Source of the DNA: Shigella phage ESh20
Sequence record: ON528730
Length of the DNA stretch: 64,000 nucleotides
Reading direction: 5' to 3' (one strand)
Shown one piece after another: positions 10,777-52,225 of this stretch. The notes under the pieces were generated by a model. The model was not told where the DNA came from. It did no database searches and saw only the letters and a program-made list of their open reading frames with translations. Made by a program: the position numbers and the translations under genes. Each line of letters opens with the position of its first letter. Positions within the stretch are counted from its first letter, which is position 1.

Positions 10777-11035
10777 GATTGCCTCTGTTAAGTATCTATA
10801 AAGATTTTAATCTCTTATCTTTATGTATGTTATACATATAACTTTAAAGCTTTTTAAAAGCTATTAAAAATCTTTTAAGACTTTTAAAGAAACTGTATAG
10901 TTAATCTATAAAGGGAGTCTATTAAGATAAAACCCACTTCGAAAAGACTAACACCTTGTCAAGTAGTTTGTCAACTTGCTTTTTGAAGAAAATTGCTGTA
11001 GGGTATTATCCAGAATGATTTGAGAGGGAGTAAAA
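10777..11035. promoter_or_regulatory. Divergent AT-rich control region between minus-strand and plus-strand early blocks
   Basis: 260 bp non-coding; 7-bp inverted repeat TATGTAT-gtt-ATACATA (10822-10838); TTGTCAAG...TTGTCAAC repeats (10956-10978); TATTAT -10-like at 11004-11009; RBS GAGGGAG before ATG 11036. Confidence 0.45.
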
Positions 11036-46698: not shown

Positions 46699-46729
46699 AT
46701 TTAAGGACTCTCGTAAGAACCCTTAGAAG

Positions 46730-48477: not shown

Positions 48478-48560
48478 TGGCATGGGACGGAGGATTCGAA
48501 CCCCTTTGAGTAAGTTTTGGAGGCTTACGCACATGCCTTAGTGTCTTAACATCGTCCCAT
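48478..48560 (-). tRNA. tRNA-Trp (anticodon CCA), enlarged D region
   Basis: Perfect 7-bp acceptor ATGGGAC/GTCCCAT, T-loop TTCGAAT, anticodon loop CTCCAAA, about 8 extra nt in D region. Confidence 0.5.
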
Positions 48561-48724
48561 ACTATATTTCGAAGCTTACCCTGTTATCTCAACACTGTCA
48601 AGCTTCTTCTCAGATTATTTACATGTTCTGGAAAACATGAGATACAGACCACCTCCTTATGAGATTGACTCTTTCAAGTCAATGCGGAGACCCATAAAGG
48701 TCGTCATAGTAATCTGCTAACTAA

Positions 48725-48843
48725 TTGGCAGTCAAGGTAGGAGTCGAACCTACTTACTATTAAAGGGAGCTACCCTTCAGCAACTATCCGACTTTCGTTT
48801 ATCTCTTAACGCGTATCCAAGATAACTTACTCGTGTTGTCTTG
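48725..48843 (-). ncRNA. tRNA-like element with about 40-nt internal insertion (not a canonical tRNA)
   Basis: CCA-rc and 7-bp acceptor AGTCAAG paired with CTTGACC 119 nt apart; canonical T-arm GTAGG-TTCGACT-CCTAC; no canonical anticodon arm identified. Confidence 0.4.
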
Positions 48844-48854
48844 ACCATTAAAAT

Positions 48855-48931: not shown

Positions 48932-49178
48932 ATTATCTTTAAAGGCTCTCTTAGAAAACCCTTAAAGATGCCCACTTTATTAATCATACCGTGGGCTAGT
49001 ACGCCAAATTCTTTAACAGGGAGTTGGAATACCCTGCTGGTGTTTAGCCTATTAAGCTACTGCCAGAAAAACATTATCGTTTGCATTTATTTTTAAGTTT
49101 TTAAAATAGACGCTACGCTAACGAAAACTAAGGTTATCTTAAAGTGGTCACATCTGAATGTCAACAACTTTATGAAAT

Positions 49179-49254
49179 TTGGTACTGGTAGGTGGAATCG
49201 AACCACCGATATTCCCTTATCAGGGGAGTGTTATAACCTTCTTAACTATACCAG
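49179..49254 (-). tRNA. tRNA-Ile (anticodon GAT)
   Basis: T-arm GGTGG-TTCGATT-CCACC, anticodon loop CTGATAA. Confidence 0.65.
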
Positions 49255-49333: not shown

Positions 49334-49415
49334 CATTATAAGTTGCCCCTTTGTAGAGAACTGATTGAGTGGGTGTTTCCAGCCGCGCATGTGTTCTTCA
49401 GTTAAGGGGCGAATT

Positions 49416-49491
49416 TGGTAGAAGTGGAGGGATTCGAACCCGTCGCCTGTCAGATTAAAAGTCTGCCGCATCACCATTCTGCTACACTTCC
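49416..49491 (-). tRNA. tRNA-Lys (anticodon TTT), same T-stem pattern as Lys(CTT)
   Basis: Anticodon arm CAGA-CTTTTAA-TCTG, T-loop TTCGAAT with 3 G:C pairs. Confidence 0.5.
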
Positions 49492-49914
49492 ATTAAATCA
49501 TCTTTGCAGTAACCTACGCAAACCTTGCTAAAGGGTTTGTAGAGTCATCTCTTATAAGCTAATCTAGAATCATGCTCAAGAGACTCTTCGGCACTCATGG
49601 GACGACTGGTTAGCTCCATAAGTCACTGCAAAGAGGATTACCAGACCGTATTTATCTTAAGTGCTTCCATTACACCAACACGCCGTAACGTGTGAAGGAA
49701 TCGAACCTTCGCCTTTTCTTTATAAGAGAAATAGATTGTTTATTGTTTGCTGTAAACGGTCTTCTGTAAAATTGTTGGAACCAGACCAAGTTTTAAATTT
49801 TTCAAATTAAATTGGCTTGAAATATTAAAATTGCTTGCTGTATTTGGTCTTCTGCTCCTTTAAAGAATACTCGTAAGAACTCTTTAAGGGAGGGGCTAAA
49901 AAGCCCTCTCAAAT

Positions 49915-49991
49915 TTGGCGGTTACGAAGGGATTCGAACCCTCATCATCCTCCGTGACAGGGAGGTATTTTGACCAGTTAAACTACATAAC
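49915..49991 (-). tRNA. tRNA-Asp (anticodon GTC)
   Basis: T-loop TTCGAAT, anticodon arm CCTCC-CTGTCAC-GGAGG. Confidence 0.7.
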
Positions 49992-49997
49992 CTTTAT

Positions 49998-50085
49998 TTG
50001 GTGCGCCGTGAAGGAGTCGAACCTCCCGAGTCATAATGACAAGTGATTTACAGTCACCACCGCTTCCATCTACGGGATAACGACG
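49998..50085 (-). tRNA. tRNA-Tyr (anticodon GTA), type II
   Basis: T-loop TTCGACT, long variable arm hairpin, anticodon loop CTGTAAA, 3-bp D stem. Confidence 0.6.
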
Positions 50086-50154
50086 CATTTTATTCTATTC
50101 AGGCTAAGGACTTGCACCTTACAAATCGGTGAGCAATCGCTTCTCTCCCAAATC

Positions 50155-50231
50155 TTGGCGGTTAGTCAGGGATTCGAACCCTGTACCATTCGGTTAACAG
50201 CCGACCGCACATGCCTTATGTGCTTCCTAAC
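50155..50231 (-). tRNA. tRNA-Asn (anticodon GTT)
   Basis: T-arm CAGGG-TTCGAAT-CCCTG, anticodon arm TCGG-CTGTTAA-CCGA. Confidence 0.65.
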
Positions 50232-50315
50232 CATGTTAGTATTACCAGACCGTATCTTTTCATTTTTTGCCTATAAAAAATTTTAAGTGTTTGCTGTAAA
50301 CGGCCTTCTGTAAAT

Positions 50316-50392
50316 TTGGAGGCGGGTGTAGGAGTCGAACCTACCGATAACATGCTAATGAGACATGTGAGACACCCTTTCTCTATACCCGC
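50316..50392 (-). tRNA. tRNA with CAT anticodon and unpaired position 1:72 (initiator-like or Ile2-like)
   Basis: T-arm GTAGG-TTCGACT-CCTAC, anticodon loop CTCATTA closed by T:G pair, U1:C72 mismatch. Confidence 0.5.
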
Positions 50393-50479
50393 AATTCTTA
50401 ATGACCAGACCAAATCTTTTTTGGATTTCTATGCGCGAAATTGAAAAGTTTGTTTGCTGTAATTGGTCTTCTGTCAAAA

Positions 50480-50557
50480 CTGGCATTCCCGAAGGGACTT
50501 GAACCCTCAAACCACACCTTGAAAGGGTGTTGACTTTACCTAATTTGTCTACGGGAA
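50480..50557 (-). tRNA. tRNA-Glu (anticodon TTC)
   Basis: Perfect acceptor CGGGAAT/ATTCCCG, T-loop TTCAAGT, anticodon arm ACACC-CTTTCAA-GGTGT. Confidence 0.7.
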
Positions 50558-50563
50558 TATAAT

Positions 50564-50643
50564 TTGGTCTCCGTTGAAGGATTTGAACCTTCGACCCCTT
50601 GCTCCCAAAGCAAGTGCTGCTAAACCAAACTGAGCTAAACGGA
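50564..50643 (-). tRNA. tRNA-Pro (anticodon TGG)
   Basis: Perfect acceptor, T-arm GAAGG-TTCAAAT-CCTTC, anticodon arm CTTGC-TTTGGGA-GCAAG. Confidence 0.7.
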
Positions 50644-50775
50644 GATAATCTTTTTAACAACCTATGTAACAACTATAACACTATTTTTTAGTGTCTGTCA
50701 AGAGGTTTTTTAAAATAATTTGATTTATTTCAGAAAACTTCTTTTTCGTTTCTATGTAGAACATATTAAAGGGTA

Positions 50776-50809: not shown

Positions 50810-52225
50810 TTACCAATCGTAGCGTTCAATAATTACTGCTTTGAGCATTACGCTGATAGGGTCAAACTTCTCACCACCAAGCAAAGCTTTTAAAGTGGCT
50901 GGAGAGAAACCAGATACCATCGCTACACCGTTATCCTTTACAGACACTTCGCAAGTACCGTTACGGTTTGCTAAGTACCAGAATACCAGTTGTGGCATCT
51001 CATATCCAGCTTTCTTGTACTTTTCTTGAATTGCTTCAAAGTTAGTACGACCATCTGCTCCATCAACCTGATTAAACTGCATATCAGAGAAGATGATAAG
51101 CTTACTAGGCATCTCTTTCTGAGTCAAGTTGTTTTTAACACCAGTCTCAAGGATTCTTGCAAAAGCAGCTTGTAGGTCAGTTGAACCATACTCTACATGA
51201 CTCTTCACTTGACGTAAGCGAGTCTGTAAATCACCACTCAATGTGATGAAGTGAGGTCTGCTAGAGTAAACCATCAATTCATCTTTAAAGCAACCTGTAT
51301 TACGTTCTGAAACGTACAGGGCTAAAGATACACCAATGTCTAGCGCTGTAACAGAACCATGTCGCTCCCAAGTCATAGATGAAGATACATCTGCCATGCA
51401 CAGAATGTTCTCACCCTCTTTCATCCAGTTTGGTAAAGCTTTCCACTGCTCATTTGCAACGGTTGCATTACCATAACCGACTGACTTTGTAATGTCATAA
51501 GGGTAGACTGCACCAGCATTAATCTTTGTCTCACCTTTAGTCAGTGCTGCAATGTATGCTGCATAACGCTCACCATCTTTACGACTGAAGAGTTTTTGAT
51601 AACGTGCAGCAGCCAGTGAAGGAAGCTTGCTGTAATCAATCTCTCCGAACTCATTTGCTGAAATCTTTTGTTCAACAGTATCAGACAGTGCTGACAGAAG
51701 AACTCGATACTGCTTCTCTGAAAGATTTGCAAACTTACAGAAACGACGAACAAAACGCATGTGTCGTGATTTTACTCGTGGTAACCATTTTGCTGCCAGA
51801 GCCGATGTTGCAGGGTCTAACAGTGCAGCTTCTAAATGCTTGAAAGCATCTGTTTCGTAACGTGTACCAACAAAGATTTTAAAGTCGTCATAACGACCTA
51901 AATCAGAAATCTTGTCCATGATACGTAACACTTGGAACTCATCAAGAATCCCGTCAGAGATTGCTTTAGTAAGAGTATAACGGAACGCTTTACGCTCACC
52001 CATACCTTCTCGTGCATCTCGCATATGTAACAGGATTCGAACTGCTACATCAATATCTTCTCGCATTGCCTTGTAAAACAAGTTTGGAAGAACTTCTACG
52101 TTTGTTCTGCTTGAACCAGCAGCTTTGTAGAAATCTACCAGTGCAGACATTGAAGAGGTGTGGTTAACAGCACCGTTTTCAGTTAAACCTGCATGTAAAT
52201 GCGAGTGTTTAAATAATTCGCTCAT
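50810..52225 (-). CDS. vWA-domain protein with N-terminal domain of unknown function
   Basis: MIDAS-like DxSxS motif in ILCMADVSSSMTWERHG at about residue 279; 471 aa; adjacent to tRNA array. Confidence 0.55.
   Translation of the reverse strand: MSELFKHSHLHAGLTENGAVNHTSSMSALVDFYKAAGSSRTNVEVLPNLFYKAMREDIDVAVRILLHMRDAREGMGERKAFRYTLTKAISDGILDEFQVLRIMDKISDLGRYDDFKIFVGTRYETDAFKHLEAALLDPATSALAAKWLPRVKSRHMRFVRRFCKFANLSEKQYRVLLSALSDTVEQKISANEFGEIDYSKLPSLAAARYQKLFSRKDGERYAAYIAALTKGETKINAGAVYPYDITKSVGYGNATVANEQWKALPNWMKEGENILCMADVSSSMTWERHGSVTALDIGVSLALYVSERNTGCFKDELMVYSSRPHFITLSGDLQTRLRQVKSHVEYGSTDLQAAFARILETGVKNNLTQKEMPSKLIIFSDMQFNQVDGADGRTNFEAIQEKYKKAGYEMPQLVFWYLANRNGTCEVSVKDNGVAMVSGFSPATLKALLGGEKFDPISVMLKAVIIERYDW

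What the first reader, a model, noticed from the sequence alone, without database searches (positions are those of the whole stretch)
49640..50480. Two recurring sequence motifs in the spacers between tRNA genes
Four spacers carry TTTGCTGTAAACGGTCTTCTGTAAA-like sequences (about 49746-49771, 49833-49856, 50289-50313, 50452-50477), each just 3' of a tRNA on the minus strand. Four carry ACCAGACC(G/A)(T/A)AT-like sequences (49639-49652, 49770-49782, 50243-50256, 50403-50415), the first directly abutting a structured element and the other three just 5' of a tRNA. Conservation of spacer sequence, not only of the tRNAs, suggests processing signals, promoters/terminators or protein-binding sites.
Basis: seen in the sequence. 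Interest (0 to 1): 0.55.

Follow-up and report, generated by a model that had tools for sequence, protein, structure and literature searches.

The report
Y-RNA-like genes hidden between phage tRNAs
The two repeated "spacer motifs" are the two halves of a base-paired stem that closes four small non-coding RNAs; these belong to a widespread, apparently undescribed phage RNA family that sits beside a Ro60-like RNA-binding protein gene and is probably that protein's partner.

Summary
Both motifs are real and non-random. On the tRNA (minus) strand, each copy of motif A (AGACCRW-N-UACAGCAA) pairs with the next motif B downstream (WYGGUCU-G). The result is four elements, E1-E4, each with a 7-bp closing helix and a single-stranded UACAGCAA box. 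E1-E3 enclose a variable hairpin. E4 encloses a YrlA-style tRNA-like module.

The gene just upstream of the tRNA array (50810-52225, minus strand; Pfam DUF2828/DUF7788) has a predicted Ro60 fold. A covariance model of the closing helix plus box (the "handle") finds the same element next to homologues of this gene in phages of Proteobacteria, Firmicutes, Actinobacteria and Campylobacter. All 77 hits lie on the gene's strand, often within 300 nt, and the helix covaries throughout. Two tRNA-rich regions that lack the gene lack the RNA.

Best reading: these are Y-RNA-like RNAs, co-transcribed with the tRNAs, released by tRNA processing and bound by the phage Ro60-like protein. Binding itself is inferred, not shown. 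Rfam 15 has no such family, and the closest paper found only guesses that some of the "tRNAs" are Y RNAs.

The handle also follows the same layout as Dictyostelium Class I RNAs. That is a striking but unproven lead.

The parts
50402..50476 (-). E1: small RNA between tRNA-Glu and tRNA-Met (full inter-tRNA stretch 50394-50480). Outer stem UGAC/GUCA. 5' strand AGACCAA at 50469-50463. UACAGCAA box at 50461-50454. Variable hairpin. 3' strand UUGGUCU at 50413-50407, followed by G.
   Evidence: Fold; model R1 hit 46.8 bits, E 4.5e-8; motif matches; Rfam RF01414 21.3 bits, below cut-off.
50242..50313 (-). E2: small RNA between tRNA-Met and tRNA-Asn. Outer stem UUAC/GUAA. 5' strand AGGCCGU at 50306-50300 (one G-U pair). 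Box at 50298-50291. A/U hairpin. 3' strand ACGGUCU at 50253-50247, followed by G.
   Evidence: Fold; R1 53.1 bits, E 1.7e-9; RF01414 22.2 bits.
49777..49858 (-). E3: small RNA downstream of tRNA-Asp and a GC hairpin. Outer stem GGAGC/GUUCC. 5' strand AGACCAA at 49850-49844. Box at 49842-49835. Hairpin. 3' strand UUGGUCU at 49789-49783, followed by G.
   Evidence: Fold; R1 50.4 bits, E 6.9e-9.
49638..49769 (-). E4: long form of the same element. Outer stem UUAC/GUAA. 5' strand AGACCGU at 49762-49756. Box at 49754-49747. 3' strand ACGGUCU at 49649-49643, followed by G. It encloses a tRNA-like module.
   Evidence: Fold; partial R1 hit; RF01414 21.2 bits; orthologues in L001, L002 and L004-L009.
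49661..49731 (-). tRNA-like cargo of E4, in YrlA order. V hairpin UUUCU-CUUAUAA-AGAAA (49731-49715). T arm GAAGG-UUCGAUU-CCUUC (49710-49694). Closed acceptor-like hairpin ACACG-UUACGG-CGUGU (49693-49678). UG. D arm GUGU-AAUGGAA-GCAC (49675-49661).
   Evidence: Read from the sequence and the fold. Rfam tRNA 30.1 bits; ARAGORN makes no call. In Felixounavirus orthologues the acceptor hairpin changes ACACG/CGUGU to ACUCG/CGAGU (compensatory), and the V loop varies. The equivalent module in L074 scores 32.9 bits on Rfam YrlA.
50810..52225 (-). Gene for a 471-aa Ro60-like protein (Pfam DUF2828 + DUF7788; PHROG 850 'RNA-binding protein'), directly upstream of the tRNA/E-RNA array on the same strand. 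Proposed protein partner of E1-E4.
   Evidence: Pfam and PHROG hits. AlphaFold2 model with mean pLDDT 89.5. The top 12 Foldseek PDB hits are all Ro60/TROVE chains, E 1e-8 to 1e-6, TM up to 0.67. The MIDAS residues D279, S281, S283, T349 and D381 are invariant across the alignment.
50672..50701 (-). Sigma-70-like promoter (TTGACA-18-TATAGT with TG, 11 of 12) about 25 nt upstream of tRNA-Pro. Likely start of the transcript that carries tRNA-Pro, Glu, E1, Met, E2, Asn, Tyr, Asp, E3 and E4.
   Evidence: Consensus scan only; no transcript data.
50481..50558 (-). tRNA-Glu. Its 3' end lies 4 nt before the E1 outer stem, so it sets the 5' boundary of E1.
   Evidence: ARAGORN.
50317..50393 (-). tRNA-Met. 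RNase P cleavage at its 5' end would set the 3' end of E1, and its 3' end sets the 5' boundary of E2.
   Evidence: ARAGORN and Rfam.
50156..50232 (-). tRNA-Asn. Its 5' end lies 9 nt after the E2 outer stem, so it sets the 3' boundary of E2.
   Evidence: ARAGORN.

Best explanation
E1-E4 are four paralogous genes for Y-RNA-like non-coding RNAs.

Shown:
- Each RNA has a 'handle' made of three parts. The first is a 7-bp helix joining its 5' and 3' ends; its first pair is A-U and its second pair is an invariant G-C. The second is one unpaired G after the 3' strand. The third is a single-stranded (U)UACAGCAA box 1 nt after the 5' strand.
- The handle encloses a variable cargo: a small hairpin in E1-E3 and a tRNA-like module in E4.
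- The element is linked, on the same strand, to genes for a Ro60-fold protein across very distant phages.

Inferred:
- The RNAs are transcribed with the tRNA array from the promoter upstream of tRNA-Pro.
- They are freed when RNase P and 3'-end processing cut out the neighbouring tRNAs.
- The handle is the binding site for the Ro60-like protein encoded just upstream (50810-52225, minus strand).
- By analogy with Ro60-Y RNA particles, the RNA would gate the protein or tether it to other factors through the cargo module. E4 would use its tRNA mimic to recruit tRNA-handling enzymes or nucleases. The particle would act in RNA or tRNA quality control or in counter-defence during infection.
For: 1. 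A and B pair and covary within the window, in both the inner and outer stems.

2. Model R1, built on short elements, finds only E1-E3 and part of E4 at E below 0.05 in the 64-kb window.

3. In 75 unrelated IMG/VR loci picked only for a DUF2828 homologue (38-46% identity), R1 gives 77 hits at E<=1, all on the gene's strand. Of these, 61 have E<0.01. They fall in 45 loci, 24 of which were not used for training, and 32 lie within 300 nt of the gene.

4. A regex-plus-stem scan gave 58 same-strand hits within 1.5 kb of the gene. Shuffled sequence gave 3 such hits in 5 shuffles, about 0.6 per shuffle.

5. On 32 hits from loci not used for training, 99% of cells are paired and 6 of 7 pairs show compensatory change. 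The covariation score is 0.885, against 0.21 for shuffles and about 0.1 for slid registers. The second pair is G-C in all 32.

6. The same element lies beside the gene in cultured phages of Listeria, Campylobacter, Mycobacterium and Vibrio.

7. The protein has a Ro60 fold.

8. The cargo of a relative's element matches the tRNA-like core of YrlA at 32.9 bits, E 3e-5. E4 has the same V, T, closed-acceptor and D order that Chen et al. 2014 describe for YrlA (PMC4201824).

9. Negative controls. The syntenic 12-kb tRNA-region locus of Erwinia phage BoyaciRG1 holds neither gene nor RNA. The T5 tRNA region has no hit. That T5 lacks the gene is inferred from the organism counts, not checked directly.

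10. In unrelated phages the element sits exactly between tRNAs, which fits release by tRNA processing.

11. The PhageMaP preprint reports that gp130 of the Felixounavirus Bas63 is Ro60-like, lies directly upstream of the tRNAs and counters the Ppl defence. Its authors only guess that some of the tRNAs are Y RNAs (PMC11482910).
Against: - There is no binding or expression data.
- The box is not the Ro60-binding motif of known bacterial Y RNAs (GNCGAA). Rfam YrlA does not hit E4.
- The protein shows no sequence-level match to Ro60 in the PDB, even when searched as a profile.
- The loci used for the linkage statistics were chosen because they carry the gene.
- In a gene-independent scan, only 6 of 23 stem-positive elements had the gene inside the stored piece of contig, which was often short. 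Genome-level co-occurrence is therefore not established.
- The E1-E3 folds are not clearly more stable than shuffled sequence (z -1.0 to -1.8).
- The training alignment was selected for perfect stems, so its 100% pairing is circular. Only one search is independent.
Confidence: 0.7

Rival explanations
1. The motifs are cis-acting signals that guide cutting of the polycistronic tRNA precursor (RNase E, RNase III or RNase P helper hairpins). On this view they have no life of their own as RNAs.
For: The elements lie between tRNAs here and in other phages, often abutting them. Hairpins in spacers can direct nucleases.
Against: The same handle occurs right next to the Ro60-like gene where no tRNA is annotated nearby (mycobacteriophage Archie), and just upstream of the gene start in many loci. 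An invariant 8-nt single-stranded box and elaborate conserved cargo modules are not expected of a spacer hairpin. The tRNA-rich T5 region has none.
Confidence: 0.1
2. They are degenerate or rearranged tRNA genes (pseudogenes) left over from duplications in the array.
For: The 7-bp closing helix followed by one unpaired base resembles an acceptor stem with a discriminator base. E4 holds T- and D-arm-like parts and passes the Rfam tRNA cut-off by about 1 bit.
Against: E1-E3 have no tRNA arms. The UACAGCAA box has no counterpart in tRNA. The handle is conserved with covariation across phages whose proteins are only 30-46% identical, which decaying pseudogenes would not be. The 'anticodon' loop of E4 is not conserved among close relatives.
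Confidence: 0.05
3. They are inverted repeats in double-stranded DNA: operator sites for a dimeric regulator, or the ends of a small mobile element that spreads in tRNA arrays.
For: They are inverted repeats present in several copies per genome and in many phages, so some mobility is plausible.
Against: The spacing between arms ranges from about 25 to more than 200 nt. All 77 hits are on the gene's strand. G-U pairs are tolerated, for example in E2, which works only in RNA of that strand. The conserved box lies on one side only.
Confidence: 0.05
4. They are promoters or terminators that partition transcription of the tRNA array.
For: The A copy in E1 contains TTGACA. One marginal 9-of-12 promoter-like match overlaps the A copy of E4.
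Against: No -10 partner lies at the right spacing in three of the four copies. No GC-rich stem is followed by a U tract. The scan totals (4 promoter-like, 3 terminator-like sites) are close to the shuffle means of 2.8 and 1.5. The conserved positions are those of an RNA helix, not of promoter hexamers.
Confidence: 0.03

Closest known systems
Bacterial and phage Y RNAs of the YrlA type (Rfam RF02553) with Ro60/Rsr
   Same: Small RNAs encoded on the same strand and close to a Ro60-fold protein gene, often in several copies. They are modular: a stem formed by the 5' and 3' ends acts as the protein handle, and a variable effector module sits inside. E4 and many relatives carry a tRNA mimic in the V arm, T arm, closed acceptor hairpin, D arm order. 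In Listeria phage P61 an RtcB ligase gene lies close by, as in the Salmonella rsr-yrlA-rtcBA operon.
   Different: The handle differs: an A-U/G-C-based 7-bp helix plus single-stranded UACAGCAA, instead of the GNCGAA(N)G motif. The protein belongs to Pfam DUF2828/DUF7788, not TROVE, and has no detectable sequence similarity to solved Ro60 structures. RF02553 does not hit the window. Most members (E1-E3) have no tRNA-like part. Here the RNAs are embedded in a tRNA operon.
Dictyostelium Class I RNAs (Rfam RF01414; Kjellin et al. 2021, PMC7919456)
   Same: The layout is the same. A terminal 6-7-bp stem starts (A)AG and ends CUG(U). (C)UUACAGCAA follows directly after the 5' strand and is unpaired. 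The rest is variable and A/U-rich, and total length is about 60 nt. E1, E2 and E4 give full-length RF01414 alignments (21-22 bits), and a relative scores 29.1 bits. 21 of 26 D. discoideum sequences fit the rule derived from the phages alone.
   Different: All scores are below the Rfam cut-off of 41.5. Class I RNAs have their own DUSE promoter, are known only from dictyostelids, and their one proven partner is the RRM protein Rnp1A. Dicty usually has 2 nt between stem and UACAGCAA; the phages have 1. I could not test whether Dictyostelium has a DUF2828 protein.
Thermus phage phiLo Ro60 with Yrl1/Yrl2 (PMC12135203)
   Same: A phage-encoded Ro60-fold protein (the top Foldseek hit, 9kop/9l5y) with two phage-encoded Y-like RNAs next to its gene.
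   Different: The phiLo RNAs carry the canonical CGAA motif and the protein is a recognisable Ro60 homologue. No tRNA array is involved.
Stable RNAs of unknown function in the phage T5 tRNA region (RNAI, RNAIII, RNA1, RNA2 and others)
   Same: Small stable RNAs, some tRNA-like, interspersed among phage tRNA genes (annotation of NC_005859).
   Different: No match to the handle model in T5. T5-like phages appear to lack the DUF2828 gene; this is inferred from organism counts.

Membership tests
YrlA / bacterial Y RNA (RF02553) | Encoded within about 4 kb of, and on the same strand as, a Ro60 orthologue | tested here: met
   E1-E4 lie 330-1170 nt downstream of the Ro60-fold gene on the same strand. 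The protein is DUF2828-type, not TROVE.
YrlA / bacterial Y RNA (RF02553) | GNCGAA(N0-1)G Ro-binding motif near the 5' end | tested here: not met
   The conserved box is UACAGCAA in all four copies and across the family.
YrlA / bacterial Y RNA (RF02553) | tRNA-like domain (T arm, closed acceptor-like stem, D arm) | tested here: inconclusive
   Present in E4 and absent from E1-E3. A relative's module scores 32.9 bits on RF02553.
YrlA / bacterial Y RNA (RF02553) | Reaches the Rfam gathering score (69 bits) | tested here: not met
   No RF02553 hit on E1-E4 at E<=10. The only window hit, 21.6 bits, overlaps tRNA-Phe/His.
Dictyostelium Class I RNA (RF01414) | Short stem joining the 5' and 3' ends, with a conserved G-C pair and AAG / CUGU ends | tested here: met
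   AAG-stem...stem-CUGG in all four copies. Across the family the second pair is G-C in 32 of 32 hits, followed by G.
Dictyostelium Class I RNA (RF01414) | 11-nt motif CCUUACAGCAA next to the 5' strand | tested here: inconclusive
   8-9 of the 11 nt are identical (UUACAGCAA or AUACAGCAA), in the same position but 1 nt closer to the stem.
Dictyostelium Class I RNA (RF01414) | Reaches the Rfam gathering score (41.5 bits) | tested here: not met
   21.2-22.2 bits in the window; 29.1 bits at best in relatives.
Dictyostelium Class I RNA (RF01414) | Own DUSE promoter about 60 nt upstream; dictyostelid genome | tested here: not met
   The elements lie inside a phage tRNA operon. The sequence is 99.8% identical to Shigella phage Sf15.
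Ro60 / TROVE proteins (for the 50810-52225 product) | HEAT-repeat ring plus C-terminal vWA domain | tested here: met
   AlphaFold2 mean pLDDT 89.5. The top 12 Foldseek hits are full-length Ro60 chains.
Ro60 / TROVE proteins (for the 50810-52225 product) | Sequence membership (Pfam TROVE, or a match to solved Ro60 structures) | tested here: not met
   Pfam gives only DUF2828 and DUF7788. Neither phmmer nor a profile finds a PDB Ro60.
Ro60 / TROVE proteins (for the 50810-52225 product) | Binds Y RNA | not testable with these tools
   Needs RIP/CLIP or a gel shift.
tRNA (for E4) | Cloverleaf with a paired acceptor stem, a D arm in place and a conserved anticodon loop | tested here: not met
   Rfam scores 30.1 bits against a cut-off of 29, but with mispaired acceptor positions and no D arm in the normal place. 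ARAGORN makes no call. The loop varies among close relatives: CUUAUAA, CUGGUAA, CCGGUAA, CGGUAA.

The most novel reading that the evidence does not exclude
The handle (terminal A-U/G-C helix, UACAGCAA box, 3' G) would be the recognition element of a second, Ro60-like RNP system built on DUF2828/DUF7788 proteins, reaching from phages to eukaryotes. The enigmatic Dictyostelium Class I RNAs would be its eukaryotic members. They have the same layout (AAG-stem-CUUACAGCAA...stem-CUGU), their molecular role is unresolved, and they were reported as unique to dictyostelids. DUF2828 proteins are also reported from plants and from mimivirus-like sequences. If this is right, phage genetics and biochemistry could reveal what Class I RNAs do, and a DUF2828-type protein would be a missing Class I partner.
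Probability: 0.2. Interest if true: 0.9.

Novelty: new variant of a known kind. Interest (0 to 1): 0.75.

Why it matters
- Homologues of this Ro60-like gene occur in 709 of 50,697 sequenced phage records, in phages of E. coli, Salmonella, Vibrio, Listeria, Staphylococcus, Campylobacter, Mycobacterium and others. There are also more than 2,000 metagenomic proteins.
- One orthologue-like gene in a Felixounavirus was reported to counter a bacterial defence system, yet its RNA partner has not been identified.
- This work gives concrete candidates with a defined sequence and structure signature, plus a covariance model to annotate them.
- It shows that "spacers" in phage tRNA arrays can be genes for regulatory RNAs. 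It also shows that tRNA arrays serve as expression and processing platforms for them.
- It yields a directly testable bridge to the Dictyostelium Class I RNAs, whose molecular function is unresolved.

Tried and rejected
- **Small ORF.** Motif B looks like a coding pattern (K-R-Y/F-G-L-V-I, with third-position changes). The variable positions are the covarying outer stem, and no family-wide ORF exists.
- **Circularly permuted tRNA-Ile(UAU).** E4 has the order AC arm, T arm, acceptor, D arm. I rejected this because the 'anticodon' loop is not conserved in close relatives and the acceptor hairpin is closed by a variable loop. The order is that of YrlA.
- **Known ribozymes or other Rfam families.** No hit at E<=10 other than tRNA and Dicty Class I.
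- **Promoters or terminators.** Not supported.
- **First IMG/VR pattern scan.** It used the wrong register (N5 instead of N4). It became an accidental control: 0 of 48 matches had a stem, against 23 of 47 with the right register.
- **Dictyostelium DUF2828 protein.** The afdb50 library was unavailable. Motif searches of the truncated proteomes in the Kjellin supplement found nothing useful. Literature searches on DUF2828, PF11443 and related terms found no functional work.
- **Other literature look-ups.** Avesson 2011 is cited without a PMC id and was not looked up, and the Aspegren 2004 look-up failed, so the other Class I-binding proteins remain unknown to me. The phage list of Chen 2014 (Table S2) is not held.
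- **Bas63 record.** Guessing its accession returned Bas51 instead. Orthology of Bas63 gp130 to this gene therefore rests on synteny and genus only.
- **Giant-virus MAG match (L150).** It fits the rule but was not recovered by the model at E<0.01. I treat it as possibly chance.
Full report
**Context.** The window is from a FelixO1-like myovirus. It is 99.8% identical to Shigella phage Sf15/Sf17 (Ounavirinae, Mooglevirus) across 49400-50700. ARAGORN finds 26 tRNA genes, all on the minus strand, between 45612 and 50644. The finding concerns the promoter-proximal end of this array.

**Checking the observation.**
- Motif A, searched as TTGCTGTANNNGGYCTTCTG with up to 3 mismatches, occurs four times in 64 kb, only at 49747, 49835, 50291 and 50454. 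Expectation is 0.42, and 0 of 100 shuffles reach 4. The repeat finder reports the same four copies as family D10.
- ACCAGACC occurs six times against 1.36 expected. Four copies are on the + strand at 49640, 49780, 50244 and 50404.
- Only two A copies directly follow a tRNA.

Read on the tRNA strand, A is CAGA-AGACCRW-N-UACAGCAARCA and B is WYGGUCU-G-GU. The 7-nt cores are complementary, and each A matches its own downstream B:
- AGACCAA/UUGGUCU in E1 and E3
- AGGCCGU/ACGGUCU in E2 (one G-U pair)
- AGACCGU/ACGGUCU in E4

A second, outer stem also covaries: UGAC/GUCA, UUAC/GUAA, GGAGC/GUUCC, UUAC/GUAA. RNAfold gives all four the same architecture. That architecture is an outer stem, an AGA/G internal loop, a 7-bp stem, about 12 unpaired conserved nucleotides, an inner hairpin of unrelated sequence, and then closure. 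The stability z-scores are modest (-1.0 to -1.8), so the case rests on comparison with other sequences, not on folding energy.

**E4.** E4 (49638-49769) encloses four parts in order. They are a hairpin with a 7-nt loop, a perfect T arm (GAAGGUUCGAUUCCUUC), a closed hairpin ACACG-UUACGG-CGUGU, and then UG plus a D arm (GUGU-AAUGGAA-GCAC).

I first read this as a circularly permuted tRNA. Close relatives argue against that. The first loop varies (CUUAUAA, CUGGUAA, CCGGUAA, CGGUAA). The closed hairpin changes compensatorily (ACACG/CGUGU to ACUCG/CGAGU) and has a different loop. The order V arm, T arm, closed acceptor-like stem, D arm, all inside a stem formed by the RNA's ends, is what Chen et al. 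describe for the bacterial Y RNA YrlA (PMC4201824).

**The neighbouring gene.** The ORF directly upstream of the array on the same strand (50810-52225, 471 aa) matches Pfam DUF2828 and DUF7788 and PHROG 850 'RNA-binding protein'.
- With a 43-sequence alignment, AlphaFold2 gives a confident model (mean pLDDT 89.5, pTM 0.89).
- The 12 best Foldseek matches in the PDB are all full-length Ro60/TROVE chains: Thermus phage phiLo, Xenopus and Deinococcus. E-values run from 1e-8 to 1e-6 and TM reaches 0.67. Isolated vWA domains follow.
- The MIDAS residues are invariant in the family.
- There is no sequence-level match to solved Ro60 structures, even with a profile. This is a divergent Ro60-like family.
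- Homologues occur in 709 phage records across many host phyla. In mycobacteriophages they are annotated 'Ro-like RNA binding protein'.

**Linkage across phages.** I fetched 80 IMG/VR loci through the protein alignment, each with the gene on the + strand.
- A simple scan looked for an [ACU]ACAGCAA box preceded by 7 nt that pair perfectly with a downstream 7-mer followed by G. It gave 58 same-strand hits within 1.5 kb of the gene, 16 same-strand hits farther away, 2 inside the gene and 2 on the other strand. Five shuffles together gave 3 near same-strand hits.
- The stems differ completely between phages, for example UGGUUCC/GGAACCA, AGGCUUC/GAAGCCU and AGGAUCG/CGAUCCU.
- I built covariance model R1 from 33 short elements. 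In the window it finds E2, E3 and E1 (53, 50 and 47 bits), part of E4, and one marginal hit (19 bits, E 0.07) elsewhere.
- In the 75 non-Felix loci (1.22 Mb, both strands) it finds 77 hits at E<=1, every one on the gene's strand. Of these, 61 have E<0.01. They fall in 45 loci, 24 of which were not in the training set, and 32 lie within 300 nt of the gene.
- The training alignment is 100% paired by construction. On 32 hits from loci outside the training set, 99.1% of cells pair and 6 of 7 pairs show compensatory changes (77 cells). The covariation score is 0.885, against 0.21 for shuffles and 0.07-0.17 for slid registers. Pair 2 is G-C in all 32 and pair 1 is A-U in 29.

**Cultured phages and controls.**
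- *Listeria phage P61:* three tandem elements just upstream of the gene, with an RtcB ligase gene 1.3 kb downstream.
- *Campylobacter phage NCTC12673:* one element between the tRNAs and the gene.
- *Mycobacteriophage Archie:* two elements just downstream of the 'Ro-like' gene, with no tRNA annotated nearby.
- *Vibrio phage phi-pp2:* elements beside the gene and in the tRNA array.
- *L074:* six elements stand in tandem upstream of the gene. One combines the handle with a tRNA-like core that hits Rfam YrlA at 32.9 bits, E 3e-5.
- *Negative controls:* the syntenic tRNA region of Erwinia phage BoyaciRG1 has neither gene nor RNA. The T5 tRNA region has 25 tRNAs and 8 stable RNAs of unknown function but no R1 hit.
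- *Gene-independent scan of IMG/VR:* with AAAGG-N4-TTACAGCAAAC, 23 of 47 matches carry the 7-bp stem plus G. An off-register pattern (N5) gave 0 of 48.
- *Position of those matches:* they sit in tRNA arrays, typically exactly between two tRNAs.
- *Caveat:* only 6 of the 23 had the gene inside the stored fragment, so whole-genome co-occurrence remains to be shown.

**Mechanism.** Shown: a conserved, covarying RNA helix with an invariant single-stranded box, strand-specific linkage to a Ro60-fold gene, modular cargo that includes YrlA-like tRNA mimics, and placement in tRNA operons.

Inferred:
- Transcription starts at the sigma-70-like promoter at 50701-50672.
- The RNAs are released when the flanking tRNAs are processed.
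- The handle binds the Ro60-like protein.
- The particle has a Ro/Y-type role in RNA surveillance or counter-defence. The only functional hint is the PhageMaP preprint. There, Bas63 gp130 (Ro60-like, directly upstream of the tRNAs) counters the Ppl system, and the authors suggest that some 'tRNAs' might be Y RNAs without identifying any (PMC11482910). I did not verify by sequence that gp130 is the orthologue.

**Comparison with known families.** These are not YrlA by Rfam score or by binding motif (GNCGAA versus UACAGCAA). The protein is not a Pfam TROVE member. Rfam 15 has no model that reaches threshold, and I found no description in the searchable literature. I rate it a new variant of the Ro60/Y-RNA kind.

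**The Dictyostelium lead.** The only Rfam family besides tRNA that aligns to the elements is RF01414, the Dictyostelium Class I RNAs. The alignments are full-length, at 21-22 bits on E1, E2 and E4 and 29.1 bits on a relative. All are below the 41.5-bit cut-off.

Kjellin et al. define Class I RNAs by four features. These are a 6-bp stem joining the ends, the 11-nt motif CCUUACAGCAA next to the 5' strand, conserved AAG and CUGU ends, and a variable remainder of about 60 nt. They found none outside dictyostelids (PMC7919456). This is the phage handle almost nucleotide for nucleotide. 21 of 26 D. discoideum sequences satisfy a rule derived from phages alone.

DUF2828 proteins are also mentioned from plants and from mimivirus-like contigs. 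I could not test whether Dictyostelium has one. This remains a lead and could still be convergence or chance.

**Rivals.** tRNA-processing signals, decayed tRNA genes, DNA-level inverted repeats or mobile elements, and promoters or terminators each explain some features. None explains the strand-specific linkage to the Ro60-like gene, the invariant single-stranded box and the covarying helix across distant phages.

Noticed in passing
window 49492-49641 (minus strand): A 150-nt stretch directly after E4 folds into a very stable long-stem structure (-51.4 kcal/mol, z -5.8; 0 of 200 shuffles fold as well). It has no Rfam match. It is present in Sf15 but absent from the Felixounavirus loci examined. 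Possibly another lineage-specific ncRNA.
   Followed up: partly
window 48478-48557 (minus strand): A cloverleaf-like tRNA-shaped sequence ending in CCA, with a T arm and a 9-nt 'anticodon' loop (CCUCCAAAA). ARAGORN does not call it.
   Followed up: partly
window 48722-48846 (minus strand): A 7-bp acceptor-like stem (GGUCAAG/CUUGACU, then GCCA) with a T arm encloses about 125 nt. It could be a tRNA-like RNA with a large insert. ARAGORN does not call it.
   Followed up: partly
window 46700-46724, 48938-48962, 49860-49884 (+ strand coordinates): A third recurring spacer motif (TTAAAGAATACTCGTAAGAAC-like, three copies; families D17/D19). It lies just upstream (in the tRNA sense) of tRNA-His, tRNA-Arg(tct) and E3. 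Its function is unknown.
   Followed up: no
window 49885-49907 (minus strand): A GC-rich hairpin (GAGAGGGC-UUUUUA-GCCCCUC) lies right after tRNA-Asp with no U tract, so it is not a canonical intrinsic terminator.
   Followed up: no
window 48998-49238 (minus strand): Weak Rfam hits to permuted and alpha tmRNA models (20-30 bits, below cut-off) in the spacer before tRNA-Ile. Real tmRNA genes lie in the tRNA arrays of several loci that carry the handle RNA (L044, L051, L144, L171).
   Followed up: no
L012, L014, L017, L023; L027, L041, L044, L051: Inside the same handle, unrelated phages carry at least two other conserved cargo modules besides the tRNA mimic. One contains GAACCUUUCUGGAGGGGAAAGCAAAAACUCGCC. 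The other contains GAGACCCGGAGAUCAGUGACCUGGUU... This suggests several effector classes.
   Followed up: no
L090 (Listeria phage P61) 2406-2957 and 6804-8015: A ROOL-like RNA hit (89.4 bits, below the 99.1 cut-off) and an RtcB 'tRNA-splicing ligase' gene flank the DUF2828 gene and its three handle RNAs.
   Followed up: no
L187 (phage T5, NC_005859 28-42 kb): The T5 tRNA region is annotated with eight stable RNAs of unknown function. None matches the handle model. Other phages may use different RNA families in the same niche.
   Followed up: partly
L150 4045 (minus strand), giant-virus MAG contig: A sequence fits the handle rule (AAAGGGACC-UUACAGCAA...GGUCCCUG) in a contig labelled as a giant-virus MAG. 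The model did not recover it at E<0.01, and no DUF2828 gene or tRNA lies in the 11-kb contig. It may be chance.
   Followed up: partly
window 10943-11014 (minus strand): The only other R1 model hit in the window (19 bits, E 0.07), far from the array. Probably chance.
   Followed up: no
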